DNA from: Lingula anatina
Taxonomy: Eukaryota > Animalia > Brachiopoda
NCBI GenBank assembly: GCA_051362555.1
Contig: CM120642.1
Span: forward strand, 14,508,001 to 14,572,000
DNA: 64,000 nt
Direction: 5' to 3'
A program made the translations under genes and the position numbers. Below, one piece after another: positions 19,301-64,000 of the stretch; positions within the stretch are counted from its first letter, which is position 1, and every line of letters begins with the position of its first letter. The notes under the pieces were generated by a model. It searched no databases. It was not told the origin of the DNA and saw only the letters and a program-made list of their open reading frames with translations.

Positions 19301-19566
19301 ATAAGGCAGCACTCCGCGCTCACCAGAAGGCGCTGGTTGACGATATCACAGAGCCGTGCTTGCGGGACGTCCTGCTACGGTTCCAGCAAGAGGGCATATT
19401 CTCTGAACGAGAGGTGCTGACGGTGAAGAGTCGCGATTCACAAAGAGAGAGGAATGTTATCTTCCTTGACATCCTCAGGACTAAAGAAGAGAGAGCATTT
19501 TATGAGTTTACGCGATACTTGGGAGCCAACGGACAGCTTCATCTCAGCGAACTCCTCCAGTTATAG
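16399..19566 (+). CDS. LRR-Roc-COR-CARD ROCO protein (MFHAS1/MASL1-like with C-terminal CARD), ~966 aa; exons 16399-19009 and 19277-19566
   Basis: About 10 LRRs of 23 aa (e.g. LKELYLQGNNLTSLP). Roc motifs: G1 GEVARGKTS, G3 DFGG, G4 GTHVD, G5 VSS. COR motifs: LPKRW, FLASSGEIIWF, LELCY, YHFPCLL, ICPHC. Phase-1 intron GCAG|gtaatg ... ttttcag-like tttcag|AA joins in frame to a CARD-like six-helix domain (LRAHQKALVDDI...GIFSERE...FLDILRTKEERAFYEF...LSELL). Acceptor upstream of the ATG at 16249/16250. Confidence 0.88.
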
Positions 19567-24056: not shown

Positions 24057-24487
24057 TTATACATTGTTACACTCTTGCTGTCCTTGAATCAAAGCTTTCT
24101 CTTCATGGGGAACTGAAGCTGGCTTATCATGCAGGGAATCATTTGGTTTCAGCGGTTTCATCATAATGCCTTCATCCTCTAACTGATTCACTGTAAATTT
24201 CATTTCTGGGTGAAACTCTCGTAACCACTGGCGGCGGGCTGGGCTGAGGGATTCATAGTACTGCTCACGGAACTTGGTTGGCACTGGACCCCAGTCCACT
24301 GCCGGGCGACAGAGCTTCTTGATTCTCTAAAAACAAGACAAAGGACAGAAATATGATGAGAGCCATCAACTAGTCCTTGAATATATCCAAAAAAATATTT
24401 ATTAAAAACTGAAAATCTTGCCTCCTAAATCAAAGCTGAATTAAACTTGAATACAATTTACTATTCAATAAATAAATAAATAAACTG

Positions 24488-24523
<36 letters not shown>

Positions 24524-30500: not shown

Positions 30501-33500
30501 ATATGTATCTTATCAAAAAGTGTTGTAACTAATTGATTTTAAGTGATTGATATGTAACTGAAAACTGAATTCATCAGAATCCAGCAAGTGGATTGACATA
30601 ATTCCAAAAGCAAGCTGAGATAACATCCCAAGTAGGCCAACCTTTCTCAGTCAAAAACAATATTAATGTAAAGATGGACCAACAAGGCATGTTATCTACA
30701 TGTATAGTGCACTGCATTGGACAGTTTATTGAAACTTGTCTATAAACCTACCCATAACAAGTTTTAGTTAAAGTCTAATTTTCCTGTTTTTACTCTCAAT
30801 ATACTAGTTTATTTTAGTTCTTATAAATACATGTTTAGAAAGGTCAAGGTCATGTCAAGGCCACTCTAGGACAAGGTCATCAGTATATCCAGAAATTTTC
30901 TTGAACCTTGAGTGATGACAGCATCAACAGTCCTTCCAGTTTCTTGTGCCATGAAGCCAATGATTGAAAAGATGACAAAGCCAGCAAATATACTGGTTCC
31001 TTCATTCAGCAATGGAACTATTATTGCATCCCTGTGAAAAAGAAAGACAATCACACCGATGTTAATAATACGTAACTGGATTACAAGCAAGGCTTTCTGC
31101 TGACACATCTGCATTGAGCCAGCTTGTGGTTGATCTTCTCTTTAGGTCGGTTGAACGTCAACATCAAAAACAAAATATAATCAAACAACATGTAAAAAAG
31201 TCATGGTAAGGCTGGCAAAAAATAAAAACAGACCACTGAAAATGTGGTTTTACTATCAGTCTTTGACAAGTTGGTCAACAAACAAAAAAATTTGGTTGTG
31301 AAGTGTAAGCATCTGGCTGCCATTCTTGGTTTAATTGCTGAATAGGCAGAAATCCCCATATAATTGCAGTGACAAGACTAAGGTCATTTGCCTTATTTTT
31401 TTAAGAGTTTTAACTGAAATACCCATAATTTTGTAATAACACTGCCTAGAAATATCTAAAGAGCCCCCATCCCATTGTAAAAGAAGGTGACCAGAAGCGC
31501 AGAGTGCAGGACATGCAAAATTGAAAAGAAAATTGCCAATGTGCTTGAATATCAATGGTGAGCAATGAATGAAAACAAAATGCTACTTACTTCCCTTCAG
31601 ATTACTTATCTTTCAATAGCATTACTCTCCCTATAGGAGTTGGAAGCATCCCAAAATTTCATATCAAATGATCAATGATGGGTTACTGTCAAACAGTTAA
31701 ACTTAAAACTATTAGCAAATTAAAGTTAGTCTAAAAGTTTTATTCTTATACTTAGAGCAATAGATATGAAATTTGAAGATTATTCTTAGCTACATTAAAA
31801 GCTAACTCACCTTAGGCAGTTATTCTGGAAGCGGTTGTAGCTGGCAAATGTGATCATGGCCCCCCAAGCAGCACCAACAGAGTAGAAGATCTGTCCCGCT
31901 GCCTCGGCCCACACCTAAGTGCAATAAATATATGATTAAATATCATTTGAAAAATTCATATATTTTGGCTATCAGAGTTAATCTCACTTCTACCTAATAT
32001 TTCATTTTATGGATGTTTTTCCACAAATTGTACAAAAATAAGGTGCCATTTCTGTTTGAGGACAGCCACTATTCCAAAACTACAGTGTAATTAGCTTTTC
32101 TCATGACTTGTAAATGAGAACAGATATTTTCTTCATACATGTACCTTAAAGCTCAGCAGTTTCTCCCATTTAGGAATAAGATAATACTTTATCCCCTCCA
32201 TAGAGCCTGGAAGTGTGACTCCGCGCACCAGTAATATAATCAATACCAAGTAAGGAAACGTGGCTGTAACATAAACAACCTAAAAGAGAAAGGTAAACAT
32301 AAGTTTTATATGAGCCTATCTCCAATCATATCATCTTGTTTACCATTATCTACCTAGTAGTCAACAAACATGTATTTGCTCTAGGAAAGGTTTTAGAACG
32401 ACACCAAAGCCAAAAATTGCTGCAGACAAGGTAACTTTTACAGTACATCTCAAACTGCCTTTGGATAATTTGAATGGTGAAGATGTTAAAGGTTATAAAA
32501 TGAATCTTATGCTAAAAAATACAAGTTACATATCCATATGAAACTACTTGCAAACATATTAGTAATACATTTGTTTAAAGAACTGATATACCTTTCCAGA
32601 AGATTTTACACCCTTACACAAACACAAGAAGATCATAACCCAGGCAAATATCAGGCACAGCAACAGCTGCCAGCGAATGGGACCAATGTTTTCTATACCC
32701 TCTGACAACTCAAGTACATGGTTTCTTGAAAAAAGGGGAGAAAAAAAAATTAAAAATTAAAAGCATTTTCCATTGTGAATATAGCCAATTTACAATGTTA
32801 CACATACATGTATTTACTTAGTGATAAAATCAAATTGGTTTGTGCATAAAAATAATCTCTTAAGATTTTCTGTTAAACTGGATGAGTGCTCTAGAAAACT
32901 TAAAACTCATGATAAATACAATAACTTGAAACAATCAGTTGGAAAGCCAAGTCAGATTTTAATTAATTTTAGACTGATTGACTATATATGAAATGTCCAT
33001 ATTTGTGCCTTTTTCCTATTCTGATACTTACTGCCAATACTGTTCACTAGGAGACTCCCTCTGTATGGTGACATTTGTGCTGTTAGCACCATCCACCCCA
33101 TAGTGCATCCAGTAGCTGGCACTGCTATTGGCAGTCAAATTTCCCATCAACCTCACCACCCCAGCGCCATCTAGCAACGGATCTAGGGGTCCCTGGTGTG
33201 TATGGTTGGTAGCATTAGGACTACGTTTATGCCACAGAGCACAATTCTCATCATTCCAGTCATTATTGCAGTGACTCCATGGAAGAACTGCTTGGAAGGA
33301 CATCAATAAGTAATACAGGGTCCATGTGATGATGATGTTGTAGTAGATACACACAATTCCAGACACTATCACCATACCCCAGCCAATGCCTGAAATAATA
33401 TAATGTTAAAGATACAAACAAATCCAGACTTCAGAACCAATGCCAACTATTTCCAACATCTCTGAAAGTAGACTTACACACCTGTAATCATTAAACTAAT

Positions 33501-34680
33501 CAAACGTCTTCTTTTTCTATGCCATTTAACAAAGGTTAAATAAAGTAACCATGTCTTAAAATTTATAGAATACAGGTGTAAGTTTCTTTACCTTTGAACA
33601 TTGGACTGAGCTTCCAGACCCCCGTGGGACTCTGGCTGCAAAACTGTCCATATGCAATCTCCAGGAAGACAAGAGGCATTCCACACAGCAGCAGGAAGAT
33701 GCAGTATGGAATAAGGAAAGCACCTGCATAAACAGGAAATATGTTTGCCATAAAAATAGATAAAGATGTCGACTGATAAATTTTATTTTAAAAAACTCCT
33801 TGAGTAATAATAACCTCCGCCATCGAGGTTGTTTTCTGACCTCCGCATGTTTGTTTGTTATTTTTGTTTGTCTTTTCCTTGCCAGCCTAACTCAAAATGT
33901 AATGTATGGGTTTTGATTAAATTTTCAGCATAGGTTACATATTTGTGGGCTAACTTAAAAGTGGTTAAATTTTGGTGATGATCTATTGATTAATTAATGA
34001 TTAATTATTAGTTAATTATTCATGGAGGTCTGTGGTCTCTGACAGTTTTTATGGTTGAGTTTTGATATATACAGTCTTATATTTATACTGTCTTAACTGT
34101 CTGTCTCCAAAACACACTACTTCACCATCTGATATTTGTAAATTGTTGATATTTTGCTGCATATCAACTAGGTTTCAAACCAAATAACTTGGAAAAAAAC
34201 ACTTTTATGAATTAGCTATTGTTTGCAAGACATCACTCCATAAAAAAGTTTGTTATGTTTATCCTTCAATTTTTCAGGGGTTGGACAAATTATATTCATC
34301 TGCTACCTTTTGCCATAATTTGTAAAAAAAAATCCATAATGGCAGCTATTGCTTGCAAATAATTTCTCCTGCTTGAAACATTTAGCCAGTAAACTAAAAA
34401 ACTGATATATGCCAAATATGCAACCAACAAGCCTTCAGTATTATTTTAACATGTAAACATAAAGGATTAGAATGAAATCCTTAAAACAAGCCATGCACTC
34501 ACCTCCACCATTTCTGTAACAGATATAAGGAAACCTCCATATGTTACCCAAACCAACAGCATACCCAATACAGGACAAGAAAAAGTCAAGTCGACCACTC
34601 CAGTTGCCACGCACTTTGTTCTCGTCTTCTAGGCCCACCATCTTTGGCAAAGACAGCTTTCGCTTAATTTTATCCCCCAT
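24057..34680 (-). CDS. SLC6 Na+/Cl- dependent amino-acid neurotransmitter transporter, glycine-transporter-like (GlyT/SLC6A5/A9-like), 13 coding exons
   Basis: Exons (minus strand, all GT-AG, frame-consistent): 34692-34503 (ATG 34680), 33723-33592, 33389-33032, 32724-32592, 32279-32145, 31914-31811, 31031-30907, 28697-28585, 26174-26043, 25875-25776, 25478-25378, 25030-24863, 24326-24057. Hallmarks: [79 protein letters not shown] (TM6 Trp as in GlyTs), [23 protein letters not shown]. Confidence 0.93.
24490..24521. repeat. (GT)n microsatellite
   Basis: Direct reading. Confidence 0.9.
24565..24779. mobile_element. 215-bp Harbinger-like MITE in the last SLC6 intron
   Basis: 3-bp TSD ATA (24562-64, 24780-82). 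Imperfect TIRs. Near-identical to 44-258. Confidence 0.8.
26248..28300. mobile_element. Non-autonomous Helentron-type element (HINE/DINE-1/Pearl-like) with an internal satellite array, in an SLC6 intron
   Basis: Starts aactagag. Subterminal inverted repeat tattgtaccaccagc (26283-97) / gctggtggtacaata (28285-99). Terminal hairpin gtaccgccagcg-ctaa-cgctggtggtac. ACGG/GACG microsatellite-like tract at about 28225-28255. Central tandem repeats. Confidence 0.75.
26440..27345. repeat. Tandem array, ~146-bp unit x ~6
   Basis: Anchor gtaggtcaaaggtcaatttcaaggtcac at 26463, 26608, 26796, 26942, 27088, 27234 (spacings 145, 188, 146, 146, 146). The 188 unit contains a ~42-bp internal duplication. Confidence 0.92.
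33806..34050. mobile_element. Degraded short Helentron-type (HINE) element
   Basis: Opening hairpin taacctccgcc..gaggtt followed by a (GTTT)n tract, and a distal ggaggtctg.gctctctga-like motif complementary to the start. Matches HINE layout, in opposite orientation to 26248-28300. Confidence 0.45.
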
Positions 34681-36528
34681 AGATGGTTTCTCCTACAAGT
34701 ACAAAGAATGATGTCAGATAATATCAAAATCACTGTCAGTGAAAGGTTGCTACCTCTCTATCAACTGTATCCAGTATGATATTAGAGTATTTTAAAGCTG
34801 ATTCCAATACTACAAGGTGGAATTGTAATTCACTTTTTGATGCAGAAACAGGAATGATGGATAATAATTTGAACCATTCACAGTCTGTCACTTTAAAGCC
34901 AGCACATATCCAGATCATGCAGGGACACCCTCAGGTATCCCAAGGTGAGTGGTGAGGCTGGGTAAAATGAGTTTGGGCTATTCCGGTTTAGACCAGCTCT
35001 GACACTGGGCTATACACTGTGTTTATCTCCAGTACAAAGAACTAATTATAATATTGTGTATATAATAGTAGCTAAATATACATGTATATTACTGCATACT
35101 GTGTATATGCATGCATTTATGTAATCTATACTTATATTTACATGAAAGTAGTGGAACTCCTAAGAACTCCTTTGCATACCTTTAACTATAATGGTAAACA
35201 ACTACATGTACGAACTATAATAAGAACTTTGGGCTAGTTACTGAGCTCAAACATGGTACAGAGACTAGGGTGACAAATCTCATCTTTAGCAAATGAATGT
35301 TTCCTGCAGTTGTTTGCTAAAGTTGCTGGTGCATTTAGCATGCATGCACACACACACACACACACATAAAGAGAACTCATCCAGCAATAAAAGTCAACTA
35401 TTGAGCCTCATTAAAAAGGCCGGGGCTCTCACAGCTCATGCTTTAAGTGTGTCAGCAACATTTCCATGCAGTTTCAAACTGGCAAACTTTCTTACCTAAA
35501 ATCTACACATAAGAATATATAAGGCCTTTAAGTCTCCAATGTTTTTAGTCAATTGCATTCTAAACTTAAAGGCTTCTGACAAACTATTAATTAGAAAAAA
35601 ATAAGTTTTTAGTTCCTTCCTTGAAGTTTTGGAAAAAATGCGAAAACTTATGGTCCATAAGTGTCCTAAAATACAATTTATGCCCCTTTTAGCCTGCAAA
35701 AATTTTGTATAACATCTTTTGAACACTTGTCTCTACAAACATGCCCCTTACATTTTACACATGCCAAAGTGAAGCTTAACATAATGTTTTGAACTTAATT
35801 CTGATCGTGAACAGTATTTGCCTGATGACTTATCCCACATGAGTTATGTTGAAAATACAAGGAAAACAGAAAAAAAGGCAAATGTGAAGGCCATAATCTT
35901 AACCTGTTTACTAGATACTAACCATATGACAGCAGCACTTAAATAAGTGGTATCTTATAACTCCAGCAACCCTGCTGGATTTCATGTACCAGGTGGTATG
36001 TTTCCATGCAGTTAAAGAAGTTAAGGATGACAGATAAGCTGATTCTGACATGGACTAAGATAAATTATATATTCAACCCAAATCCCCTCCCCCCCCCCCC
36101 CCCCCCCAAATAAAAAGGGAAAAAAAAAAGAAAATATAAACAAACAAACAAGAAATGTGCATTTGGCAATTGTGCAAAACTGAAGTGCCAGTAGCTGTTA
36201 CCATTACACTTATATTTAGGGACAAAAGTCTCATACACACACACACTTAGGAAATAACCATAATATATTTTCTTTGGAGAATACCAAGATACATGAGTAG
36301 GAGGTAGATATATTTATATGCAACAATTTGAAGAAAACTTATATTCTTTTGAATTAAAATGTTCATTTCCATAAACCTTTTTGACTCTCAGTTTGGTTAC
36401 CAGATTTCGGACAATATACACACTATATGTACAAGTCAAACCTAAAAATATAAAGGAAAAAGGTTTCCATTAATGAAAAATCAAATCAAACTAATTTATC
36501 CAGGGGCAAGAAATCCTTGACATCTTAC

Positions 36529-48718: not shown

Positions 48719-48891
48719 GGGCCGTAGCGATAGTCCGAAGGTTCAATAGTCCGAAGGTTCATTGGTCCGAATGTTCACTATAGAACCTTCGGACCAATGA
48801 ACCCTTGATTAAAAAATCAATGAAAATGTTACCACTTTTCGGACCAATGAACCTTCGGACCAATGAACCTTCGGACTATCGAGACGCCCCC
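48719..48891. mobile_element. 173-bp Mutator-like foldback MITE with 9-bp TSD
   Basis: TSD gcgttggtg at 48710-18 and 48892-900. Inverted arms are built from short tandem subrepeats (tccgaaggttcattgg / ccaatgaaccttcgga). Confidence 0.85.
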
Positions 48892-50060: not shown

Positions 50061-50205
50061 CTTATGATCACGGTCTGTGCACTGAATATCCCGCCGCGTA
50101 ATTACTGGCAGCGCGAGCCAGTTACTATAAGCTACTATAAGTAACTGGCTCGCGCTGCCAGTAATTACGCAGCGGGATATTCAGTGCACAGACCGTGATC
50201 ATAAG
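50061..50205. repeat. Near-perfect palindrome, ~66-bp arms
   Basis: cttatgatcacggtctgtgcactgaatatcccgc...gccagttact / agtaactggc...gaccgtgatcataag. One mismatch, ~13-nt spacer. Confidence 0.92.
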
Positions 50206-50611
50206 CTAGCGCGAATAGAAAATAGAATTTAGAAAATAGACATTGCATGTGAACGAAGCCTAAGCTGTAACTCTATTTATTTTTAACAAAATGTTTTTCT
50301 GGCTCTCTTTCTTTTCTTTTTTAAAGTTAATTGAGCAGAATTGAAATAAAAAACAGAATACTCTTCTTAATGCGTAATCCTTCCCAAATTTAAATGTACT
50401 TTTCAATGTGTTATCATCATCATCATTATAATTCAATGTTTTTCTATATTTTTCTTTTATCTTTTAAGCAGATGAAAAACACAATTTTCGGCAAAACGTC
50501 AACGTTGTGAGCAACAAACAAGACAAAATTTTCTCTTAAGAAATTTTATTCATCACCTGGGCTACAAAATGCTATAGGCCTTTACAAGCCAATACAGAAT
50601 AGAGCATACGA

Positions 50612-53307
50612 CTAACACGTTGGCCCAACTGTTATACCAACGCCGGCAAACGCAGTGGTCACGGCATTTTGGTCGTAGGTCAAGTCACCAGCCGCTTTCA
50701 TGACGCCACACGCACCTGCTTGGAATGTCGACGTTGAGCTCCAGTACAGTCTGTTGGCTAAGGTCATGGTCTTGAAGGCCTTTTCGACATCCCAACCTGC
50801 AGAGGTGCTGAGAAGGTAAAACGCTTTATTGAACACGCCGCTGCTGTAATGCACGTTTAGGCCGTCGTAGTAATTGTCTACGTGGTCAATAGATCTACCA
50901 TCACTAGGAGGGTTTGACATGCTTCGCAACCCACCGCCGCTCTTGGTTGTGTCCTGGCCGACTTGCCAGTCAACAGCGCCGTACAGATAGTATTCTAAGG
51001 CCTCTCCTGCCATGTCAGAGAAGGCCTCGTTCATACCTCCAGATTGGGTTCGGTATTCAAGCCCGGAATGGTCCTCTGTAAAACCATGAGCAAGTTCGTG
51101 CGCCATGACGTTAAGGGTAGTCAGTGGGTGAAAGTACGTGTCACCGTCACCTATGAAACAGCGATTTCTCCAGTAGAATGCGTTCTCCATTCTGTCGCCA
51201 AAATGTACACCGACTTTCACCGGTTTTGGGACGATGGCATCAAGGCCTGACCAGGTCTGGAACATTTCATAGGTTTTCTCTGCGAAGTAAAGGGCATCAT
51301 TGGTAGGGCTGTAAGCTCCGTTTGTGACATCGGCGGCATTGTTAAAATCATTGGTACAGTCGACATTATAAACGCCCACCTGTGCCAGAAGTGCATCCAT
51401 CTGTGAGCTTGTCATGCTCATGGATCCCTGTCCACCACAGTTGTAGACCTGAACGTTAGGCGTGGAGAAAGAGCAGGTACTTGTCCCGGTTGCGCGGTCG
51501 AGAGGAAGATAACCATGGCCTCTACTGCTGCACGTCTCCTGGCGCTTTTTGGCCGATCTGCAAATATCACAAATATTGCTCATAAACAAAAAAGCAATGT
51601 GATGATTGAATAAGAACAAAGCAAGTAATGTAAGATACTTCTAACGAAAGACAAAGGCGAGAACATTAGATGAAACATTCATCATCTGTTTACCCATATG
51701 ATATGGGACCTGGATTGTCATCTAACATTATCATAGATAAAAATTCTTTCCAGAGATACTACTCTTCCGGCAGTTGATATAAAACAATTAAGGTCTGCTT
51801 TTTGGACACACTGTTGATATCTTTCAATGTGCCTCGTAGTTTGTTCAAATCGTATTAAGGAAAAGTAAAATACAGATGAGAATATTTACAAATATCCAAA
51901 CTGGATTCGTAAAAATATCAAAATAACAAATTAAATTGTAATCTGTCACTTTGATCAATAATTACCCTGAGCCAATGTTCCTCCAACACCCTATGGACCT
52001 GAAATGAATGAATTGAATTCTTTGATATTCGTTGCTTGTGCATTTGTAAGAACAGAATGAAATTTAAAATTGTTACACTTAATACTTTAACTTCTCAAGC
52101 TACACTCTCACGAGGACACGTGCTTTAAATCTCAGTTGCTGCAGTATATACTTCCACGTCTCAAAAACCAGCGTTTTGCAGGGCCATATCAAATATGTCA
52201 CTTACGGTGGACTTTGGGTCGGTGCTTGTGTCGGTGCTTGTGTCGGAGCTTGAGTCGGTGCTTGTGTCGGAGCTTGCGTCGGGGCTTGCGTCGGAGCTTG
52301 AGTCACTCCAGTTTCACTGCAGTCTCCTGCAGCATTGCCGTATACCCATTTGCCGCTTTTCACATTTCCACCAACGCCCCTGATGTCAACTTTTTCTTTG
52401 GTGAGGCTTTCAAATGTCAACAAAATGGCACCATCGTTAGCATCTATGTAAAAGATCGGCTCACTGAATCCAGTTGTATCGTTGACCATGGTGAAGCGTG
52501 TTTTCCAGGTAAGATGGGCTTTGGAATTGAAAATTGCAACTTCAATATCAGCTTCTTCGTTCGCGACTGTAGCAACTTCAGCAGCTGACAAAACAGACTT
52601 TGCAATATCCAGGGCATCTGCCTTTGAAAGAGCTGGTTTTAGGTCGGATATATCCCCGTTGATGTCGCCATAGATAAGGCCAGCGACCACGCTGTCAAAA
52701 TGGCCCTTGTCTTCCTCCACAACCACCACAGTACCACGGACCGGAATACCATTCCACTTTTGGCGAAGTCTGACAAGTGTTCCCTTTGGAACGTTCACAG
52801 ACTCTACGGCGCTTAGACTACTGCTTGCCTCGTAGGCGGCAGACGTGATAAGTTGGTTCGCGTTTTGGAAGTGACCCGTTGTTGCCACCTCCTCTGCGTT
52901 GAGTTCCCTTGCTGCCTCACAAGAGTACATTGCTTCAGTGGACCAAAAGGGGAAAAAGAAATAACTGGCTCAGTGATAGTGTTTGCTTAGACGAAAGAAT
53001 TTTAATATCAATACTGACGTACACCCCGTATGATCAGGTAAGATACAAATCGAATCTGACGGAAATAAATATGTTTGAATCCAATATTAAAACAATCTCC
53101 ATAAATGTTCTTGTACGTCAAACGCAACGTCGTGTTTTGTTACTGTGGTTGGTTGTAGCCTTATATTCCGTATTTTATGCGAAAGTGCTACCTTAGGGTT
53201 AGAGAAATATTGAATGTAATATGCACCTGAAGGCAACTGTTTTTAAGCATGTAAAATAGGTATCACCTACCCAGCAGCAGTAAAGTTGCTTCCGCTATGA
53301 GACGCAT
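50612..53307 (-). CDS. Secreted M4-family (vibriolysin/LasB-like) zinc metalloprotease A, ~569 aa; coding exons 53307-53271, 52932-52206, 51557-50612
   Basis: Signal peptide MRLIAEATLLLL|AMYSCEA split by a phase-1 intron. FTP-like (VRLRQKWNGIPVRG) and PepSY-like (FYIDANDGAIL) propeptide. Mature start GVGGNVKSGK. NGAYSPTNDA, HELAH (HExxH), GGMNEAFSD, NVHYSSGVFN. Phase-2 intron CC|gtaag...tttgcag|A. Summed CDS 1710 nt, in frame. Confidence 0.9.
52208..52303 (-). repeat. Coding 12-bp tandem repeat, (TQAP)7-TQSP mucin-like linker
   Basis: Eight units ACN-CAA-GCN-CCG with synonymous third-position variation. Confidence 0.92.
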
Positions 53308-53573
53308 GTTTGTGACTTCTTTACCTTAAAAAAATACTGAAATAATAAAATTGAAGCATCTTCTCAAAGAGAAAAAACATTTGCGTAAGATTTGTAAGTA
53401 CTACAGGTGGATAAGAATTGTATATCTCCCCTGGAAAACCAAACTTAATCACATTTGCTCGATCAAAATTTCCCCTTGACCAAAAATTTCGACTTTTCGC
53501 AGTTTCAGCGTTTTACACATGATGAATGAATATGATGAATACTGATGAATATGTAAGAAAATTATTAACTTAC

Positions 53574-53657
53574 CGATACACCGTGCAATCGCTCAATGTG
53601 CGATTCCTTTGAATCTGAGCCAACTTCAGAGTATAGAATCGTTTTTATGGCTATATA
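53574..53657 (-). promoter_or_regulatory. Putative TATA box and short non-coding first exon of M4 gene A
   Basis: Minus-strand TATATAG at 53657-53651. Donor G|GTAAGT at 53573. Downstream acceptor ttttttaag at 53325 precedes the ATG exon. Confidence 0.45.
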
Positions 53658-54918
53658 ATGCGTAGGTGTGACAAATTATTACAATAGAATTAAGCAAGAA
53701 ATAATGGCAGTGGCGTAATTAGAGACCACTATACAGCTGGGTTCCTGCGAGTGGCTAATCGTCATGTCGTCACATTTATTGTGGTCATGAGTACGGTGGC
53801 TGGTTACATGGGGATACCAAGAAAATTAATTCTTTTAGGACCATACAATTCCATTTAATTTATTTTTTCTCTTATTGGCCACGGGTTAGATTATTTATTG
53901 CATCTTATAATTTTACGCCAGCATGTACATTGACTTTTTACAGTTGAGAGGCTTTTTGTAAAAACGTTTCCAGTGCAATAATAGTGGGATCCCTTTCACA
54001 CGTCATATGATTTATGAATATCACTTTGTTGCAACAAACATCATACAGTGTACCTACACTTTGGTATAGCTTACATCGAACTTCCTCACAATGGGGACAC
54101 ATAAAGTAAATTTCGTCTTCTGTGGCTCTGAGATCACCAACGCAATTAGGAACATGTTATACAGTGTTAATGTATGCGTATGTGCCTGTGCATATCTGCG
54201 TGTCTGTCTCTCTGTTTGTATGTGTGCAACAAAAAATACCTCAGTATTTGATACAGAATAGCCTGCTAAATGATATACGTGCATAAAATATATATGTATA
54301 AGCATTATGATAAAGCCAATAAAAGATTCCGTTTTTCGGATGGGCAAAATATTTGTTGAGTAAATTTTTTCTCTCAAATGTATCAATTGACAAAATTTCA
54401 GTCAAGAGGTATATGTAGTAGGTCTCCCTAACTAACAACAAAATGCGAAAGTTTTTTGAACACCACCCAAATAATAAATTGACTTGAAACCATTTGCAGG
54501 TGTTGCCTGATAGTTTTAACTTACAGATTCTTACACAAGTGACAAGTTCGTCACTACACGTTTGCACGTGTATGCAGGTGCATTATCAGAGTCACAAATT
54601 GGACATCAAATTAAACTTTTTAATGACGCACTAAATTGAAGTTGTATGTAAGATTGTCAAAGTGTCAAAGTTGAATGCCCTACCCCATCAAATGAATCGC
54701 ACGTTGTTGAGGCAAGTTGTGTGTATTCTTCACGGCGCATTTTTTATTGGGGGTTATAATCTCAAGTTAACGTGGGTAACAAAGTTTGTGTGTTGCACAT
54801 AGAAACAAAAACTGCGAGTCATAATTCTTGGAAAGAAATAAAAAGAGCCATTCAATATGGTTGGATTTTTTGTAGTTATTAAATGCTATGCCGGGGAGCA
54901 ATTTTCACAAAACATCTG

Positions 54919-55941
54919 GGCCCAGTTTTAAAAAAGGTGTTTAGCACTAACTAGTGTATCAGTCTAACCAGTGGATAAAATATCTAAAGGCCGGTTATCT
55001 AAACGACGTTAAAAATTGTCTTTTATAAGCCGGTAAGCTAAATAGTGTTGGAACAGTTTAAGCATTATCCAGATCATACTTGGAATTGAAATTTCCTAGA
55101 ATGCATGATGTTGCTATGAACAAAATAAAAGACCCCTAATATATATATATATCTTTCATACTACTTGGCTTTACTGTCTGTACACAATCTCTGAAATTGA
55201 CGGTAAAAAAATATACCAAGAACGCTCAATTGTTGCTTTATTACTTGCCATGATAACCAAGAGAATTGCTTCTGTTGCTAAAAATCTGAAGCAAGATTTC
55301 TGGAACAAGATCATGAACTGTTCATTTTGGTTAAAAAATGAATTTTCCTGGGGTAAAGGACTACTATAGTGGTAAATGAATCCATTCCGACATTCAGAGT
55401 TAGCCCCTGTTTTTTTTCTAAAGAGTTTTTTTCTTTGTAATATTCTCTTAAGAAAATATTACAGAGTGTAGCCATCTATGGAAGTCAGGTGATGTGGTGG
55501 CAAGCACAAGTTCCAGAATTATTGCTATTTTGGTGCTAAAATAGAATTCATATATTTCTATGAGTTGTTTACAATGTATTTTCTTGTGAAATATGGACAT
55601 CATATGAACAGTTGTTATCTCTTTAAATATTTTCTAAATACGAATTTTCCTAATCAGTTGCTGTATAAGAATTGCATTTCATTGTTTAAAAACTCTTTCT
55701 TAATCTTGCAGACATGAAACTTTTAGGATTTCAGACAAGCCTCAGGATCTTTGTCATATTTATCCAACGCTTACGAAATTTAAACTACCTCCTATGAAAG
55801 TATAAACTTAACCGACCGTGTTGGAGTTTAAACCGTTTGTTTGTGTGAAACATGGTTTATGAAACACTGTTAAAATTCGTTTAAGTTACACGTTGGATTG
55901 AAACTTCGGTTTATGCTAAACGACCTTTATTGAACTTGGCC
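54919..55941. mobile_element. ~1-kb Harbinger-like non-autonomous element with CTG TSD
   Basis: TIR ggcccagttttaaaaaaggtgtttagca / tgctaaacgacctttattgaacttggcc. CTG at 54916-18 and 55942-44. Confidence 0.75.
55331..55626. mobile_element. Degenerate TTAA-type (Kolobok/T2-like) MITE nested in the Harbinger-like element
   Basis: Homologous to 61305-61628 (aatgaatccatt..cattca.agttag.ccctgtttttttt..; ttgtgaaatat.gac.tcata.gaa.agtt.ttatc.ctttaa). Confidence 0.6.
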
Positions 55942-56678
55942 CTGGTAATTTATTTACGTTTACCCTTTACACGAAAGCAGATATTCCAACATAATTGTTT
56001 CGAACGGTGCAATTGACGACATAACCTGCCCGTCGACAACACGTGTTTGCAATTAAAGCGCACCTTCAACTTTACTGATAATGATAGTGCGCGATTTGCC
56101 AACCTGCATAACCTGCATTGCTCATAAACACGCTTCAGAATGATACACCTGCGGGGTATCTACAAAAGACAATGATCAATACAAGCCATGCCCTTTCTTA
56201 CTTGAAACTGTCCACAACGCGACTTATACGAAGATGTGGCTGGGGGGTTTGGAAGAGGGGCACTTCACTCCCAACTCTGTGCGCATGTACTATAAATTTT
56301 ACAGCGACTTGATCTATAGACTGTACTGAATCAATCTTTGTCAATGAGGGAAATTTAGGACAGTGCCCCCCTAAATGTTAATTTCTTGCCAAATACGGTA
56401 AGTATCGTGGGGGAATGCTCTATGAAAACGAAATTTGCTAGTGTTTTTCGAAAATTGACCAGTGCCATCGTCAAGTATTTGTTCATTCATGGCTTCGTAC
56501 CCCCAAAAGCAATTTTAAATCAATTTGGTTATTTTGTTCGGGTCAAGGTAAATTCAGTCATTGCCATCAGAACCATCTGGGAATAATGACAGTGAATTGA
56601 AATGGATTTTTAATGAAAGATCATCTCCACGTCATTTATGCCATACGGGTGGATCATGTGATTTGGTTTTTGCGTACG

Positions 56679-56752
56679 TATAAGAATCGATACGATCGGT
56701 GCATCTTGGAGCGGTTTTTGCCAATCTGCTAACCAAAAGACGTACTAATCAG
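56679..56752 (+). promoter_or_regulatory. Putative TATA box and short non-coding first exon of M4 gene B
   Basis: TATAAGA at about 56679 and donor CAG|GTGAGG at 56753. Mirrors the layout of gene A. Confidence 0.4.
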
Positions 56753-57010
56753 GTGAGGTGGCCTATGTTGAATTATCGTGGAAGAAATGATTAAGATTCA
56801 ATTGGTTAAACGCACACATAGATTCGTTGACTCCATTAATTTATTTATGCAAAATACAAATCTATTCCTCTTTGACAGTCCTTAAGAAAATCGTACATAC
56901 ATATGTCGAGTAACAGAAAGGATATATCACCAATAATTCTACAGGGAATCAGTTATAATCAGTCATAATTTGAATTCAAGGTATTCAAAAGAGGAGAGAA
57001 GAGGCGCGAC

Positions 57011-59132
57011 ATGCACTTAAGCCAATTCAGGGTGTGGTATGTGCTGGCAGCAGCAGGTAAAAGAGTGCTTTGGTTTATTATTATTTTTTAATATCATTAC
57101 GTTTGAATAGCCTATTGTTAAAAATAAAATACTGATAATAAATGCTGTATCAGTATATATTTTCATCGTGCTTATTTTTGTCAAAATTTTCACTTTATAT
57201 TTCAATCGTTCAGAATAGGTTTATATAACCAAAAAAGACAAAAAACTAGACTAACGCAGTTTTTTATCAGTAGGAATCAAATATTAGTGAGACAAAACTT
57301 TAGATCATTGATCACCCGTAGCGTGAAGCTGGATCGCTGAAGAATATACACTGCATCAACACACCTATATCCCATTGCTAATTGTAGTCCATTAACAGTG
57401 AGTGCCTTAACGTTTTTTTTTTTCAGTTTTTTCTCTGTCACCAGCTGATGCTGTCAAGGAGATAGACGCCACAGCGTACGCTATCGATACAACCAGCTCT
57501 GACCCCATCAACCTCATTCAGGGTCTCAATCAAGGTGACAATTTTCGTCCAATCACAGGATTCAGGCGCTTCGATGGTGTTCAGAAGGTTCGCTTCGAAC
57601 AGACGTATAAAGACATCCCGGTTTACGGATCGGTAGTTGTCATGGAAAAGAATTCGAATGGGGAATTTTACGATGTTTCTGACGGGGAGCTATTCGAGGA
57701 TATCCTAATGGACTTGAACGAGACTAACCCGATGGTAACTATAGCGGAAGCTATCGATATCGCCATAGCCGCCGTCAGTGATCCAGAATCTGCGTTCAAA
57801 TCTGAAGCCATTGCCGACCTCCTAGTCTCTGATGAAGGCGGATATGCCCATCTGATTTATCGCGTAAAATTTCTGGCGAAAAAGGGTAGCGGTTACTCCA
57901 GCCCGGTTGTAATCGTTGATGCGCTTAGCGGTGAAGTTTTGAGAAATTTTGAGTCCCTGATGACCGAATCTATTCAAATTGGCGGAGTTGGTGGCAATGT
58001 CAAGTTCGGTAAATATGTCTTTGGCAACAGCGCCGGAGATTGTTCTACTGGAGGTGGTGGTGGCGGTGGTGGCACCCCGACCACTGCCGGGCCAACTACC
58101 ACTGCCCCCGAGGTCACCACCAACTCCACCGACTGGGATTGGTATGACTATGACTGGAATACTACATCTAATGCTACGGCTAATGCCAATATTACCCGAC
58201 GTCAAGTCGAATCTTGCAATGCCAACCAATTCCCTAAATTAATCGTCGACAAACTGGCTAACGGCAAATGCGCGCTAAAGTCAACAAACACCCAGATATA
58301 TCATGTCCAGGGAAAGTCTGCTGAGCAAGATCCCGGACTAGGTGAACTCCTGAAAGAGGTCTATTCAGTTGACTGCACCAATAATTTCAACAATGTCAAC
58401 GATTTTGCAAATGGCGGTTACAGCCCTGCGAATGACGCGTTTTTCTATAGCGAAAAGACATTTGAGATGTTTCAGAAATGGTTGAAGAAACCGGCCGTGA
58501 AAGTGGAACCTCCAGGTCCCTTGAAAATTGCCGTTCATTTTGGTACGAACCTCGAGAATGCCTTCTACTACAGAGATCGCTGTTTCTTCGGTAATGGTGC
58601 CGACACCTTCCACCCTCTCGTTGATGTGAATGTAGTTGCTCACGAGCTCGCCCATGGTTTTACTGAGGACCACTCTAATCTTGAATACGTAGACATGTCA
58701 GGGGGTATGAACGAAGCATTTTCGGACATGGCCGGGGAAGCCTTAGAATATTACCTGTTCGGAAAGGTCGACTGGATCGTTGGAGGAGCTTCCATGAAAG
58801 AAGCAGGTAAAGGACTTCGGTACTTCGACGATCCTACAAAAGATGGGCAATCCATTGGCCACGCCCGAGATTTCAGAGCTGGCATGAGCGTTCATCTCAG
58901 TAGTGGGGTTTACAACAAAGCTTTCTACACTCTAGCCAATACCAATGGTTGGAACGTGGAAAAGGCTTTCAGGGTCTTTGGTACTGCCAACGTTGTTTAT
59001 TGGGGAGCCAAAGCTACCTTTAATACCGGCGCCTGTGGGGTTCGCAAGGCAGCTGCTGATCTGAAACTACCCACTCAAGATGTTATTAATGCCTTCAGCA
59101 GCGTTGGTGTCACCTGCACTTCAGCTAAGTAA
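57011..59132 (+). CDS. Secreted M4-family (vibriolysin/LasB-like) zinc metalloprotease B, ~583 aa; coding exons 57011-57056, 57427-59132
   Basis: Signal peptide MHLSQFRVWYVLAAA|VFSLSPADA with a phase-1 intron (CAG|gtaaaa...tttttcag). FTP motif KVRFEQTYKDIPVYG, PepSY motif IVDALSGEVL, GVGGNVKFGKY, NGGYSPANDA, HELAH, GGMNEAFSD, GLRYFD, VHLSSGVYN. CDS 1752 nt, in frame. AATAAA near 59245. Confidence 0.92.
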
Positions 59133-60216
59133 AAGTGAGCATCCACTGGGCAATGATACAGCAGAAGATTTTTTGGTTTTTCTAGTGCTGAAGTTGTTTA
59201 CTAAGATTGTCAATTTACGGTTTTGAAAGCGATTTTTAAAGGAAAATAAAATATTGAAAGATGGATGTTTTGTCCAAGCTGCTATCATTTCAGATCGCCA
59301 ATATTTTAATTTTTTTTAGTTTTTACTCGGTATAATATACACACACAAAGAGACATAAAACTGATACCTTGACACAAACAGTCCTATTTAAAATCTATTG
59401 AAAGTGCTTTGGGCGCGTTTCAAAGGATGGCAGTTTTACGTGGTCATTCAATTGAAAATAATAATGACCAACTATAGAATGGTAGTGTCTGATAGCACGA
59501 AAAGCTGAGGTGTTGGGCCAGTGGTGGAAAATGTTAATAAGTTACAAGAATAGAAAATGTGTACATTATATATATCTTTCTTTCAGAATCTGCTACAAGG
59601 GCACTTGTTTAATTATAGCACAATAAAAAAAGTTGGTTGGATAGGACTCCACACATACCAAAATTATTAAACAGCTGTGTTACTTCAATTTTTGAAAAAG
59701 CAGTTCGGGGATTCTTGGATAATAACGGTTGTAAAAAAAAGTCATGTGTAAATCTTTAAGGTATTAGTTAGGGATTCATCGTTTTGCCCCCAAATTTAGT
59801 CTCTGAAATTTTTGTCTTGAAATAAACATGTGTACTGTAGTGACAAACACAAGCCAACAGTGACATAGATATATATGCAAAGACACATCTAACTCGATTT
59901 CACTGAGCGCGGCATATCAAAGGAGTAAGAATTTTCAGATTGCCCCATAAAAATTCCACTTCACATTACTATAATATTGGGTTTAGATTATTTTGGTGCA
60001 TGGATTTGTTCAGTTATTTTTCTAAAAATCACGTGGTACCCCAGCAGCCTTATGAGTAGGGCCTAACCGTTTGAAACGGAGAAGCCTGAATGAAAGATAC
60101 TGAAAGGCCTACAATACAAGTTACACCTTTATATAGAAAATCAATTAATCTTTCAGGAAAATTCAACAAATGCGGTTGGTCGAAAACGATGCGAAATATT
60201 GATTTCCTCGAAATTA

Positions 60217-61058
60217 TGGCCGGTGTAACATGAAAATCTGACTCCCATGGAAATCTGACTCCCCCAGTCAAAATTTCATGATGAAAATCTGACTCCCCCC
60301 ATGAAATTTTGACTCCCCCTCAAAAAACTTTATAAATCTTATTTTATTTGAGTATATAACTTTTATCTTGTAGTATGCATAATGGAGGATACATTGGCAC
60401 TTTTTGAAAATTTTCATGGGAAAATAAGAAAATTAAAAATGTGTATTTTTCCACCCAATGACTCCTATGAAAAGGCTATGGGAGTCAAAATCCTACAGGT
60501 AGTAAGATGAATACTTGTTTCAAAAATTATCAATTTTCACCAAACTTTTCACCACCAAACTTTTAAATACTAACAAAATATATGTCACAATGCAAACCAT
60601 GTGGAATACAATGGTATGGTGACTGAATATAAAATAGGGCCTTTTCTTCATGGGAGTCCAAATCCCTTGGGTATGAATATGAAGATTTTTCATTATTTTT
60701 TTCACCCAATATTTTACCACCAAGCTTTCAAATATTTCCAATATATTCTTCATAAAGTATACTTAAGGGAAAGATGTTGAAATGATCACCAAATATCAAA
60801 TAAATAGCTTTTTCATAGGGGAGTCATTTTTAGTTTTCTTATTTTCTCATTAAAATTTTCACCTGCAAATTAAAAAAGTACCAGTGTATCCTTCATTATG
60901 CATCCTACAATATAAAAGTAATATACTCAAATTAAATAAGATTTATAAAGTTTTGTGGGGGGAGTCAAAATTTCATAGGGGGAGTCACATTTACATTATG
61001 AAAATTTGACTGGGGAGTCAAATTTTTGGGGAGTCAGATTTTCATGGTACACCGGTCA
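60217..61058. mobile_element. ~840-bp foldback MITE with long inverted arms, between M4 genes B and C
   Basis: TIR ccggtgtaacatgaaaatctgactccc / gggagtcagattttcatggtacaccgg. Arms of roughly 250 bp with gaaaatctgactcccc subrepeats. Possible TTA TSD (60214-16, 61059-61). Confidence 0.8.
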
Positions 61059-61304
61059 TTAACCAACTTATCAACTTTGCTTTTTCCTCGCCAGCTCCAT
61101 TACAAGAGAGTTTAAAAACTTCAAAACTTGGAATTCAAAAAATGGTTTTATAGATTGTGATTTTGTCGTCGGTGATCGATATGGTGTGTCTGAAAGATTA
61201 AAGAAAAGTTGTGGAAATTTCAAGGAAAATCAAAATTTAGCTATACAAAGTTGCATGTATGCCTTTTTTAAAAGCTCAGAGACGTGTGCCAGCGGTTTGC
61301 TTAA

Positions 61305-61628
61305 AGGGATAATAGAATTTTCACGGAGTAAACAACAATTTTCCCATGCTAACCAATGGTTAATGAATCCATTTTTACATTCAAAGTTAGTCCCTGTTTT
61401 TTTTCTCAAAAGTTTGGTTTTTTGTTAAAATCTCTTAAGAGATTTTAACAGAGTATAACCATCAATGGAGGTCACGTGGTTTGAAGACAAGCTCAGATAT
61501 CAAAATAATAGCTATAACTGCTGTTTTTGTCGTAAAACAGAATATATTATATTTCTGATTAATATATTGAGTTATTCACAATGTTTTTATTGTGAAATAT
61601 AGACCTCATACGAAGAGTTATTATCCCT
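61305..61628. mobile_element. TTAA-flanked MITE (Kolobok/T2-like)
   Basis: TTAA|agggataata ... tattatccct|TTAA. Second copy at 55331-55626. Confidence 0.75.
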
Positions 61629-62162
61629 TTAATAAGAATTGGACTTGATACTCAGAGGGTTTCAATAAACACATAACGCATATATTTTCGATTATTTTAG
61701 ATGCGATGACATTTTTTCTATTTAAACCGTGACGATGTATTGATACAGTAATGGGATGAGTATAAATTACTATCAGGATAAAATAACTACCGAATGTGCA
61801 CGATTACAAGTTGAGCACTCCACTGATAAATGTATATTGAAACTGAATAGATATGGACGAAGAAAAGAGAGCGTTTATATGGAAATTGTAAGATAACATA
61901 AAGGCCCTCAAAACAGGTCGTCCGCGGGAAACAAACAATACGGGTTGGTTTGACGTTTTCCGGCAGGGGTATAGCGCTCTTTAATTTAAAAAGTCCGCCA
62001 GTACGTAATGATTTAAATGTAACAAAGTAAAACAGCTTTTATTTGTACCAAAAGTTCTTGCCATACTCAGAAAAAAAAAAGGATAAAGGCAGAATAAGCA
62101 GAATTATAATAAATTGCATAAAGCTATTATGGTTGATCTTCTTTCATGGTAGACAATCCTTA

Positions 62163-63874
62163 TTACTTAGCTGAGGTGCAGGTGACACCAACGCTGCTGA
62201 AGGCATTAATAACATCTTGAGTGGGTAGTTTCAGATCAGCAGCTGCCTTGCGAACCCCACAGGCGCCGGTGTTAAAGGTAGCTTTGGCTCCCCAATAAAC
62301 AACGTTGGCAGTGCCAAAGACCCTGAAAGCCTTTTCCACGTTCCAACCATTGCTATTGGCTAGGTTGTAGAAAGCTTTGTTGTAAACCCCACTACTGAGA
62401 TGAACATCCATATCGGATCTGAAATCTCGGGCGTGGCCAATGGAATGCCCATCCTTTGTAGGATCGTCGAAGTACCGAAGTCCTTTACCTGCTTCTTTCA
62501 TGGAAGCTCCTCCAACGATCCAGTCGACCTTTCCGAACAGGTAATATTCTAAGGCTTCCCCGGCCATGTCCGAAAATGCTTCGTTCATACCCCCTGACAT
62601 TCCTGTATACTCAAGGTTAGAGTGGTCCTCGGTAAAACCATGGGCGAGCTCGTGAGCAACTACATTCACATCAACTAGAGGGTAGAAGGTGGTGGCACCA
62701 TTGCCGAAGAAACAGCGATCTTTGTAGTAGAAGGCATTTTCATGGTTCGTACCAAAATGAACAGCAATTTTCAAGGGACCTGGAGGTTCCACTTTCACGG
62801 CTGGTTTCTTCAACAATTTCTGAAACATCTCAAATGTCTTTTCGCTATAGAAAAACGCGTCATTCGCAGGGCTGTAACCACCGTTTGCAAAATCGTTGAC
62901 ATTGTTGAAATTATTGACACAGTCAACTGAGTAGACCTCTTTCAGGAGTTCACCCAGTCCGGGATCTTGCTCAGCAGACTTTCCCTGGACGTGATATATC
63001 TGGGTGTTTTTTGACTTTAGCGCGCATTTGCCGTTAGCCAGTTTGTCGACGGTCAGTTTTGGGAATTGGTTAGCACTGCAAGACTCAGCTTGTCGCCGTC
63101 GTCTGATTAACAACTTGTCGTCTGTGCCAACTGAATAACTCTCTTCAGTCCAATACCAGTCGTCGTCGTCGTGGTATGACGGTTCGGTCGTATGCTCGGG
63201 AGAAGCTGTAGTTGGTCCAGCGTTGGGCTGTGGGGTGCTGCTGCCGCCTCCAGTGGAACAATTCCCCGCAGGGTTACCAAAGACATACTTTCCGAACTTG
63301 AGATTGCCCCCAACTCCGCCAATTTGAATAGATTCGGTCATCAGGGATTCAAAACTTCTCAAAACTTCGCCGGTATCAGCGTCAACGATTACAACCGGGC
63401 TGGAGTAGCCGCTACCCTTTTTCGCCAGAAATTTTACGCGATAAATTAGATGGGCATATCCGCCTTCATCAGAGACTAGGAGGTCGACAACGGCTTCAGA
63501 TTTGAACGCAGATTCTGCATCACTGGTTGCGGCTATGGCGACATCGATAGCTTCCTCTATAGTTATCATCGGGTCAGTGTCGTCCAAGTCCGTTAGGATA
63601 TCCTCGAATAGCTCCCCGTCAGAAACATCGTAAAATTCCCCGTTCGAATTCTTCTCCATGACGACTACCGAGCCGTAAACCGGGATATCATTATACGTCT
63701 GTTCGAAGCGAACCTTCCGAACACCATCGACGCGTCTGAATCCTGTCACTGGACGAAAATTGTCGCCTTGTTTTAGCCCTTGGATCAGCTCAGTGGGGTC
63801 GGTGCTGGTTGTACTGATAGTGTACGCTGTTGCATCTATCTCCCTGATTGCATCAGCTGGTGACAAGCAAAAAA
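62163..63874 (-). CDS. Secreted M4-family zinc metalloprotease C (5'-partial; signal-peptide exon lies beyond the window)
   Basis: Acceptor ctctttcag at 63875 in the same phase-1 position as gene B (VFCLSPADA). Same FTP/PepSY/catalytic motifs (HELAH, NEAFSD, DVHLSSG). Nearly identical to gene B outside the inserted loop. Confidence 0.92.
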
Positions 63875-64000
63875 CTGAAAGAGAAGATCAAGACATTGAC
63901 ACTGTTTTGTAATAGAATTACTACAGGAAAACATTTTGATAAAGCTATGCAATAATGAATAAAGATGCATGTTAACAAACATATTTACAATTAAGTTGAA

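What the first reader, a model, noticed from the sequence alone, without database searches (positions are those of the whole stretch)
50612..63874. Domesticated cluster of bacterial-type M4 (vibriolysin/LasB-like) metalloproteases in an animal genome
Seen: three intact prepro-enzymes with signal peptide, FTP and PepSY propeptide, and catalytic domain (HELAH, NEAFSD, active-site Tyr/Arg/His motifs). They sit among animal MITEs next to a 13-exon SLC6 gene and all share a phase-1 spliceosomal intron inside the signal peptide. Gene A has one more intron, and A and B appear to have TATA promoters with non-coding first exons. Established: M4/thermolysin peptidases are mainly bacterial, and motifs such as GxGGNxKxGxYxxG, NGxYSPxNDA and DGxSIxH are those of the gammaproteobacterial vibriolysin/pseudolysin branch. 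Inference: horizontal acquisition, followed by intron gain, fitting of a host signal exon and tandem expansion, for digestion, defence, venom or matrix remodelling. Automated annotations of similar proteins may exist in other marine invertebrates, so novelty of the family itself needs checking.
Basis: partly seen in the sequence, partly recalled or inferred. Interest (0 to 1): 0.88.

Follow-up and report, generated by a model that had tools for sequence, protein, structure and literature searches.

The report
Bacterial-type protease genes in a brachiopod
A lamp shell (Lingula) genome holds three intron-containing genes for zinc proteases of a type known mainly from marine and pathogenic bacteria, likely kept from an old gene transfer, and all three have an extra loop inside the enzyme that is predicted to be cut by the animal's own processing enzymes.

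Summary
The cluster is real. Three open M4 genes (A, B, C) lie 16 kb from a multi-exon SLC6 gene; B and C are 99.8% identical to RefSeq Lingula anatina proteins. Splicing of B and C, and the TATA/non-coding exons, were not confirmed. Catalytic residues are intact; a model of a B copy overlays Pseudomonas LasB (298/298 residues, 1.0 A).

Bacterial origin is likely, but probably not a transfer specific to this cluster: A and B fall in a clade (97/99) with a fourth Lingula M4 fused to a C-type lectin and unnamed eukaryote-like proteins, within or sister to vibriolysin-type enzymes; nesting and donor are unresolved.

New here: all seven Lingula cluster proteins carry about 80 extra residues in the catalytic domain (140-148 versus median 64, maximum 90 in 431 others), mostly a disordered, cysteine-flanked loop ending in a dibasic site, predicted to give a convertase-nicked two-chain enzyme. 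A new variant of a known phenomenon; function untested.

The parts
53271..53307 (-). Gene A coding exon 1 (start codon and first part of the predicted signal peptide), phase-1 donor
   Evidence: sequence; junction reads 53271/52932
52206..52932 (-). Gene A exon 2: FTP/PepSY propeptide, N-terminal hairpin of the mature enzyme, start of the insert with eight or so TQAP repeats
51966..51998 (-). Gene A 33-nt micro-exon (11 codons, one Cys), phase 2 on both sides, inside the insert
   Evidence: 2 reads in run X9 carry these letters between 51558 and 52204; splice sites and open frame
50612..51557 (-). Gene A last exon: KKRQ site and catalytic domain to the stop codon
53574..53657 (-). Gene A possible TATA box (53652-53657) and non-coding first exon ending at a GTAAGT donor (53573); unconfirmed
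   Evidence: motifs; trace depth 0.18 in one of 4 runs
57011..57056 (+). Gene B coding exon 1 (first 15 residues of the predicted signal peptide), phase-1 donor
   Evidence: sequence; same exon in RefSeq models P0001, P0121; no junction reads
57427..59132 (+). Gene B exon 2: rest of the prepro-enzyme, 583 aa in all; 573 of 574 aligned residues identical to XP_013384835.1
58041..58217 (+). Gene B insert from Cys221 to Cys279: Gly/Thr/Pro run, Asp/Trp/Tyr run, four N-glycosylation sequons, RRQ site
   Evidence: disorder in the model of the P0121 copy
56291..56944 (+). Gene B possible TATA box (56291), non-coding exon, donor 56398 and acceptor 56944; unconfirmed
   Evidence: motifs only; no depth in 4 runs
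62163..63874 (-). Gene C main exon, inverted duplicate of B; first exon lies beyond the window; 568 of 569 residues identical to XP_013384836.1
   Evidence: depth 0.8-0.9 in run X1
63078..63260 (-). Gene C insert between two Cys, ending in RRRRQ; far more diverged from B (51% of aligned residues) than the catalytic part (94%)
60216..61632 (.). Two repeat elements between B and C: one with inverted ends (60216-61059) and a high-copy element (61315-61632) related to 55316-55632
24060..34692 (-). Neighbouring multi-exon SLC6 (SNF family) transporter gene, animal context
   Evidence: 8 of 8 tested frames match PF00209; frames listed

Best explanation
These are three intron-containing Lingula genes for M4 zinc endopeptidases with intact active sites, likely descended from one old transfer of a vibriolysin-type bacterial gene and predicted to be secreted and activated in two cuts. 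Shown: host location, splicing and transcription of A, intact zinc and catalytic residues, LasB-like fold, an insert unique among the homologues examined, inverted B/C duplication under purifying selection. Inferred from the family: signal peptide export; the FTP/PepSY propeptide folds and inhibits the enzyme and is removed by self-cleavage just before the I-Q-I-G-G-V-G-G-N (B, C) or V-D-I-R-G-V-G-G-N (A) strand, or a few residues earlier. Inferred from anatomy: about 24 residues into the mature chain a 55-60 residue disordered loop, likely glycosylated, is bracketed by two added cysteines and ends in RRQ, RRRRQ or KKRQ; a host proprotein convertase would nick it there, leaving the short N-terminal hairpin held to the body by its beta-sheet and a predicted disulfide. 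The loop would shield or time the enzyme in the secretory pathway. Most likely role (my estimate 45%): extracellular digestion of food, mucus and microbial protein at gut or lophophore surfaces; defence 30%; matrix or shell remodelling 25%.
For: Host genes: B/C match adjacent RefSeq loci LOC106154861/2, with a second adjacent pair LOC106150509/10 on another scaffold (97% and 96%); junction and micro-exon reads from diverged animals; of 32 gene A codons changed at the 34 coding read differences I classified, 21 are synonymous (the table showed 40 of 75 differences). Enzyme: His/Glu/His, Glu, Tyr, Arg, His and the S1' Phe/Leu/Val conserved in A, B, C; model of P0121 aligns to LasB 298/298, Z 45.7, rmsd 1.0, with model residue 198 on LasB residue 1, against Z 36-37 for thermolysin. 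Origin: apart from Lingula, every named row among the 3 x 120 listed homologues is bacterial; vibriolysin-type side of the tree versus thermolysin outgroup 96/97, eukaryote-like clade 97/99; all coding introns lie in the signal peptide or the insert, none in the bacterial core. Insert: 140-148 residues between GGN and YSPxND in 7 of 7 Lingula cluster proteins, median 64 and maximum 90 in the other 431 measurable; pLDDT under 50 at 223-270. Autoprocessing of M4 enzymes: passages of PMC10017501.
Against: The other members of the eukaryote-like clade are unnamed, so their animal origin is inferred. The backbone of the tree is open; a sister position to all vibriolysin-type bacteria is not rejected (p = 0.25), nor is a separate grouping of A/B with Legionella-type enzymes (p = 0.078); the FastTree runs split the eukaryote-like proteins into two groups; long branches are involved. 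Gene B had almost no reads in 4 runs and A only low depth. Some reads cover gene A's last intron. B's RRQ and A's KKRQ are dibasic but not the full R-X-K/R-R furin consensus. Disulfide pairing could not be read from the model. One LasB calcium ligand (Asp136, numbering recalled) is Asn in all three. No protein or activity data.
Confidence: 0.68

Rival explanations
1. The A/B/C cluster comes from its own, brachiopod-specific transfer, separate from the other Lingula M4 and the other eukaryote-like proteins; the shared clade is long-branch attraction.
For: A and B have long branches; grouping with Legionella-type enzymes is not rejected (p = 0.078); A/B are only 38% identical to the Lingula M4-lectin; the insert is confined to the cluster.
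Against: Clade support 97/99 under a site-mixture model, 97-99 SH-aLRT in two other taxon sets; grouping with Vibrio/Aeromonas-type (p = 0.039) or Thalassomonas/Shewanella (p = 0.034) is marginally rejected, with no correction for four tests; 17 of 21 eukaryote-like proteins share dibasic motifs in the first 300 residues against 37 of 430 others (pattern chosen after seeing the sequences).
Confidence: 0.14
2. The genes are vertically inherited from an early eukaryotic or early animal M4 gene (possibly organelle-derived) that most lineages lost; no transfer into animals took place.
For: The eukaryote-like clade is deep and diverse, and its sister position to all vibriolysin-type bacteria is not rejected. 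A similar retention-versus-transfer ambiguity is discussed for Lingula GH13_1 amylases (PMC7003070, passages).
Against: 43-46% structural-alignment identity to LasB and MCP-02; bacterial PPC tail domains kept in some clade members; no introns in the core; no named non-Lingula eukaryote among 360 listed rows, though each search scored only about 8000 candidates and listed 120.
Confidence: 0.08
3. The enzymes are domesticated, but the insert is only a tolerated, glycosylated surface loop or tether that is not cut and has no regulatory role.
For: The loop is low-complexity, disordered and the fastest-changing part between B and C; two of three basic sites are not full furin consensus sites.
Against: Both flanking Cys and the basic-basic-Gln end are kept between A and B/C, which are only 44% identical, while the loop interior is unalignable.
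Confidence: 0.3
4. The cluster is bacterial contamination or a chimeric join in the assembly.
For: Best non-Lingula hits are bacterial; no long-read linkage could be tested; coding GC (0.48-0.51) is above the neighbouring ROCO gene (0.43).
Against: Spliceosomal introns confirmed by reads; host repeats between the genes; the B-C pair is adjacent in two annotated scaffolds besides this window; eukaryote-type sequons and dibasic sites.
Confidence: 0.01

Closest known systems
Pseudolysin/LasB (Pseudomonas aeruginosa; PDB 8cr7, 1ezm) and vibriolysin MCP-02 (PDB 3nqx), peptidase family M4
   Same: Prepro layout with FTP/PepSY propeptide, all zinc and catalytic residues, S1' pocket, first disulfide pair, fold (Z 45.5-45.7, rmsd 1.0-1.1, 44-45% identity).
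   Different: Nuclear animal genes with spliceosomal introns; about 80 extra residues in the N-terminal half of the mature domain, with two added Cys and a dibasic site; no C-terminal PPC domain; Asp136 to Asn, Trp115 to Tyr, Ile190 to Ser/Thr.
Legionella ProA (PDB 6ya1)
   Same: Same fold, 316 residues aligned, Z 44.6; same preproenzyme processing described (PMC10017501, passages).
   Different: 38% identity, lower than LasB; no such insert; sister grouping not preferred but not rejected.
Lingula M4 + C-type lectin protein XP_013417113.1 (LOC106178470)
   Same: Same species, same eukaryote-like clade, same M4 core.
   Different: 38% identity to A and B, no insert (71 residues in the measured span), C-terminal lectin domain, on another scaffold.
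Bacteria-to-animal transfers with later intron gain: msp130 (PMC11878542, passages; includes Lingula), centipede venom families (PMC7864903, listing and start of abstract only)
   Same: Bacterial-type secreted protein kept in marine or predatory invertebrates, then duplicated.
   Different: Different protein families; those cases have named multi-phylum sampling, which I could not obtain here.

Membership tests
Peptidase family M4 (thermolysin family) | HExxH plus downstream Glu zinc ligand in the NExxSD motif | tested here: met
   A, B, C aligned to a LasB-like reference
Peptidase family M4 (thermolysin family) | Peptidase_M4 and Peptidase_M4_C domains above Pfam cut-offs | tested here: met
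   all three genes
Peptidase family M4 (thermolysin family) | Thermolysin-like two-lobed fold | tested here: met
   predicted model of the P0121 copy of B; Z 45.7 to LasB, 36.7 to thermolysin
Peptidase family M4 (thermolysin family) | FTP and PepSY propeptide | tested here: inconclusive
   FTP above cut-off in all three; PepSY below cut-off in A and C, not listed for B; propeptide aligns to pro-elastase
Peptidase family M4 (thermolysin family) | Zinc-dependent endopeptidase activity and autocatalytic maturation | not testable with these tools
   needs protein
Vibriolysin/pseudolysin branch of M4 | Closer to LasB/vibriolysin than to thermolysin by sequence, structure and tree | tested here: met
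   E 1e-85 to 1e-58 versus 1e-29 or weaker; tree split 96/97
Vibriolysin/pseudolysin branch of M4 | Two disulfide pairs at LasB positions 30/58 and 270/297 | tested here: inconclusive
   all four Cys aligned in B and C; in A the last is replaced, with a Cys a few residues later at the C-terminus; bonding not observed
Horizontally acquired, domesticated animal gene | Physical location in the host genome with spliceosomal introns and transcripts | tested here: met
   met for A; for B and C location and models only
Horizontally acquired, domesticated animal gene | Nested within a bacterial donor clade with statistical support | tested here: inconclusive
   within or sister to vibriolysin-type bacteria; sister placement not rejected, p = 0.25
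Horizontally acquired, domesticated animal gene | Absent from most eukaryotes | tested here: inconclusive
   no named non-Lingula eukaryote in the listed rows, but lists were capped and many rows unnamed
Proprotein-convertase-processed two-chain protease | Cleavage at a basic site in an exposed loop with chains held by a disulfide | not testable with these tools
   motifs and disorder are present; cleavage and bonding need protein

The most novel reading that the evidence does not exclude
One ancient transfer gave several marine invertebrate lineages an undescribed family of vibriolysin-type proteases, the same class bacteria use against animal tissue. In Lingula this cluster rewired the bacterial self-activating enzyme with a host-controlled second switch: a cysteine-tethered loop inside the catalytic domain, cut by a furin-type convertase to give a two-chain M4 protease.
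Probability: 0.3. Interest if true: 0.75.

Novelty: new variant of a known kind. Interest (0 to 1): 0.57.

Why it matters
M4 proteases are treated as microbial enzymes and virulence factors. A spliced, expressed, duplicated set in an animal, with signs of a wider unnamed eukaryote-like clade, would add a protease family to the animal toolkit and give a clean case for watching a bacterial secreted enzyme adapt to the animal secretory pathway: introns only in the added or peripheral parts, glycosylation sites, added cysteines and convertase-type sites. The two-chain prediction is directly testable. Transfers of bacterial enzymes to invertebrates are themselves well precedented, which limits the surprise.

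Tried and rejected
No whole genome was held for this window, so copy number and long-range linkage could not be checked. The run search listed no RNA holder; nine runs came by species label, of which seven were laid. In one search the joint table was filled by repeat-derived joints, so B's junction may be hidden, but depth on B was near zero anyway. Three homologue searches and a representative search gave no named animal other than Lingula; three cluster look-ups left the eukaryote-like proteins unnamed. The metagenome scan returned 80 loci whose proteins look bacterial by their N-termini. The Atlas returned only bacterial clusters for two queries, which says nothing about small clusters. The careful 54-row tree did not finish; I used a 28-row careful tree after leaving out 10 rows of the 38-row set (the longest-branched Vibrio paralogue and nine others, to save time). 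Literature: ten searches listed no paper on M4 peptidases in Lingula or other animals; PMC4595640 has no 'thermolysin', 'peptidase' or 'metalloprot' in its main text and no M4 term in its one held supplement; three supplements of PMC13121700 had none; passages of PMC8476170 on tubeworm transfers do not mention peptidases. Subscription journals, bioRxiv supplements and MEROPS/InterPro taxon tables were not searchable; I recall, without a call, that automated annotations list M4-like proteins in some other marine invertebrates. Four look-ups of earlier scan findings gave nothing relevant. Venom was set aside: no venom system is known to me in Lingula (recalled). No complex prediction was run, since split halves of a known fold would pass by likeness alone.


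Full report
Observation. Stop-to-stop frames show three long M4 genes: A (minus, frames 50612-51640 and 52202-52969), B (plus, 57411-59132) and C (minus, 62163-63887). Pfam finds Peptidase_M4 and Peptidase_M4_C in all three and FTP above cut-off in all three; PepSY is below cut-off in A and C and unlisted in B. The window is animal: an LRR-Roc-COR frame with a CARD frame at 16.4-19.6 kb and a multi-exon SLC6 gene at about 24.1-34.7 kb, 8 of 8 tested exon frames matching SNF. B and C are 573/574 and 568/569 identical to Lingula anatina XP_013384835.1 and XP_013384836.1, and 97% and 96% to a second adjacent pair on another scaffold. The 2015 genome paper reports 1.6% heterozygosity, so the second pair may be an allele or a duplicate. 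No protein corresponding to A was listed; it may be unannotated.

Splicing and expression. Seven of nine offered RNA runs were laid, in part (6-30% of each run). On 50300-55100, depth follows gene A's exons, and the joint 52932/53271 (GT..AG on minus) has 3 reads from one start in X7 and 4 reads from four starts in X9. Two X9 reads carry 30 letters between 51558 and 52204 that match 51967-51996 at 27 of 30 places (compared by eye). That stretch has good acceptor and donor sites and makes a 33-nt in-frame exon; the spliced frame is open for 580 residues. Some X9 reads cover the last intron. The reads come from diverged animals; at the 34 coding differences I classified (the table showed 40 of 75), 21 codons are synonymous and 11 are replacements. 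In one search, B had depth 0-0.22 in 4 runs, C had 0.8-0.9 in X1 in the same read orientation as A. B's and C's introns are thus unconfirmed. TATA-like words and GTAAGT donors lie upstream of A and B, but 5 of 29 such donors in the window have that pairing.

Enzyme. Against a LasB-like reference, A, B and C keep His140, Glu141, His144, Glu164, Tyr155, Arg198, His223, Phe129, Leu132, Val137 and Cys30/58/270; Asp136 is Asn (the roles of these positions are recalled from the family). An AlphaFold2 model of P0121, a 97% copy of B (57-row alignment, mean pLDDT 83, pTM 0.66), overlays LasB over 298 of 298 residues (Z 45.7, rmsd 1.0), MCP-02 (Z 45.5), ProA (Z 44.6) and thermolysin (Z 36.7), with model residue 198, an Ile, on LasB residue 1. 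B and C are an inverted duplicate with dN/dS 0.23 outside the insert and 0.19 in the catalytic part; A is 44% identical to them.

The insert. The span from the GGN motif to YSPxND is 140-148 residues in all 7 Lingula cluster proteins; in the other 431 measurable proteins (438 of 463 measurable in all) the median is 64 and the maximum 90. Most of the excess is one loop about 24 residues into the mature chain: Cys, a low-complexity run (TQAP repeats in A; Gly/Thr/Pro then Asp/Trp/Tyr with four sequons in B), then KKRQ, RRQ or RRRRQ, and a second Cys three to four residues after the Gln. It is disordered in the model (residues 223-270). Both of A's extra introns fall inside it, and the micro-exon adds a Cys that gives A nine mature Cys against seven in B and C; it may pair with A's other extra Cys (inference). 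All coding introns thus lie in the signal peptide or the insert. I infer self-removal of the propeptide, as described for M4 enzymes (PMC10017501, passages), then a convertase nick that leaves a tethered hairpin. The alternative, an uncut glycosylated loop, stays at about 30%.

Origin. All named non-Lingula rows in three searches are bacterial, mostly Gammaproteobacteria and Burkholderiales (120 rows listed each). A set of unnamed ENA and JGI proteins looks eukaryotic: several paralogues share one contig length (242,907 bases for five), N-termini are often clipped as if a signal exon were missing, and 17 of 21 such proteins (the window's three included) have dibasic motifs against 37 of 430 others (pattern chosen post hoc). 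One member is named: Lingula XP_013417113.1, an M4 fused to a C-type lectin. In the careful tree (28 rows, 443 columns, LG+C20) A and B sit in a 12-row clade of these proteins (97/99), on the vibriolysin side of the split from Bacillus/Streptomyces enzymes (96/97), with an open backbone. Quick trees agree; FastTree split off three JGI proteins. AU tests: bacteria as one clade with the eukaryote-like group outside, p = 0.25; A/B with Vibrio/Aeromonas-type, p = 0.039; with Thalassomonas/Shewanella, p = 0.034; with Legionella-type, p = 0.078. So bacterial affinity is firm, one older transfer is the best reading, and donor, date and breadth are open.

Known and new. Membership of M4 is met on sequence and fold; activity is untested. 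Transfer of bacterial secreted proteins into invertebrates is precedented, including msp130 in Lingula (PMC11878542, passages). Ten searches of open papers and the two Lingula genome papers' held text found no account of animal M4 genes; database annotations call B and C 'uncharacterized'. Closed literature and MEROPS were not searched.

Verdict. Real, likely horizontally derived, with an anatomy not seen in any other homologue examined: a new variant of a known kind, interest 0.57.

Noticed in passing
window 16369-19566 (+): A ROCO gene: a single 899-codon frame with LRR, Roc and COR domains followed by a frame with a CARD domain; probably an innate-immune gene.
   Followed up: partly
P0366 (XP_013417113.1, LOC106178470), another Lingula scaffold: A fourth Lingula M4 fused to a C-terminal C-type lectin domain, a bacterial-type protease joined to an animal-type sugar-binding module.
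   Followed up: partly
P0310, P0380, P0383, P0387, P0388 (ENA, contig length 242,907); P0381, P0382, P0384, P0460 (190,155): Apparent tandem arrays of M4 paralogues in unnamed assemblies, in the same clade as the Lingula genes; P0310 keeps a bacterial PPC domain.
   Followed up: partly
P0003, P0008, P0125 (JGI contigs of about 2.3 kb): Short-branched eukaryote-like M4 proteins with two PPC-type tails on transcript-sized contigs; they join the clade under the mixture model but not under FastTree, so they may be a second transfer.
   Followed up: partly
window 61315-61632 and 55316-55632: A high-copy short element with depth in the hundreds to thousands in RNA runs and many opposite-strand joints, consistent with a MITE carried in many transcripts.
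   Followed up: no
window 50061-50205 and 48718-48891: Near-perfect short palindromic elements (66-nt arms, 98% complementary; 54-nt arms, 91%) downstream of gene A.
   Followed up: no
window 57427 versus 57445: Two possible acceptors for gene B's intron; RefSeq XP_013384835.1 uses the later one and loses six residues of the signal peptide, probably a model error.
   Followed up: partly
window 51588-51909: A few RNA reads in run X9 cover gene A's last intron: unspliced transcript, retention or DNA carry-over.
   Followed up: no
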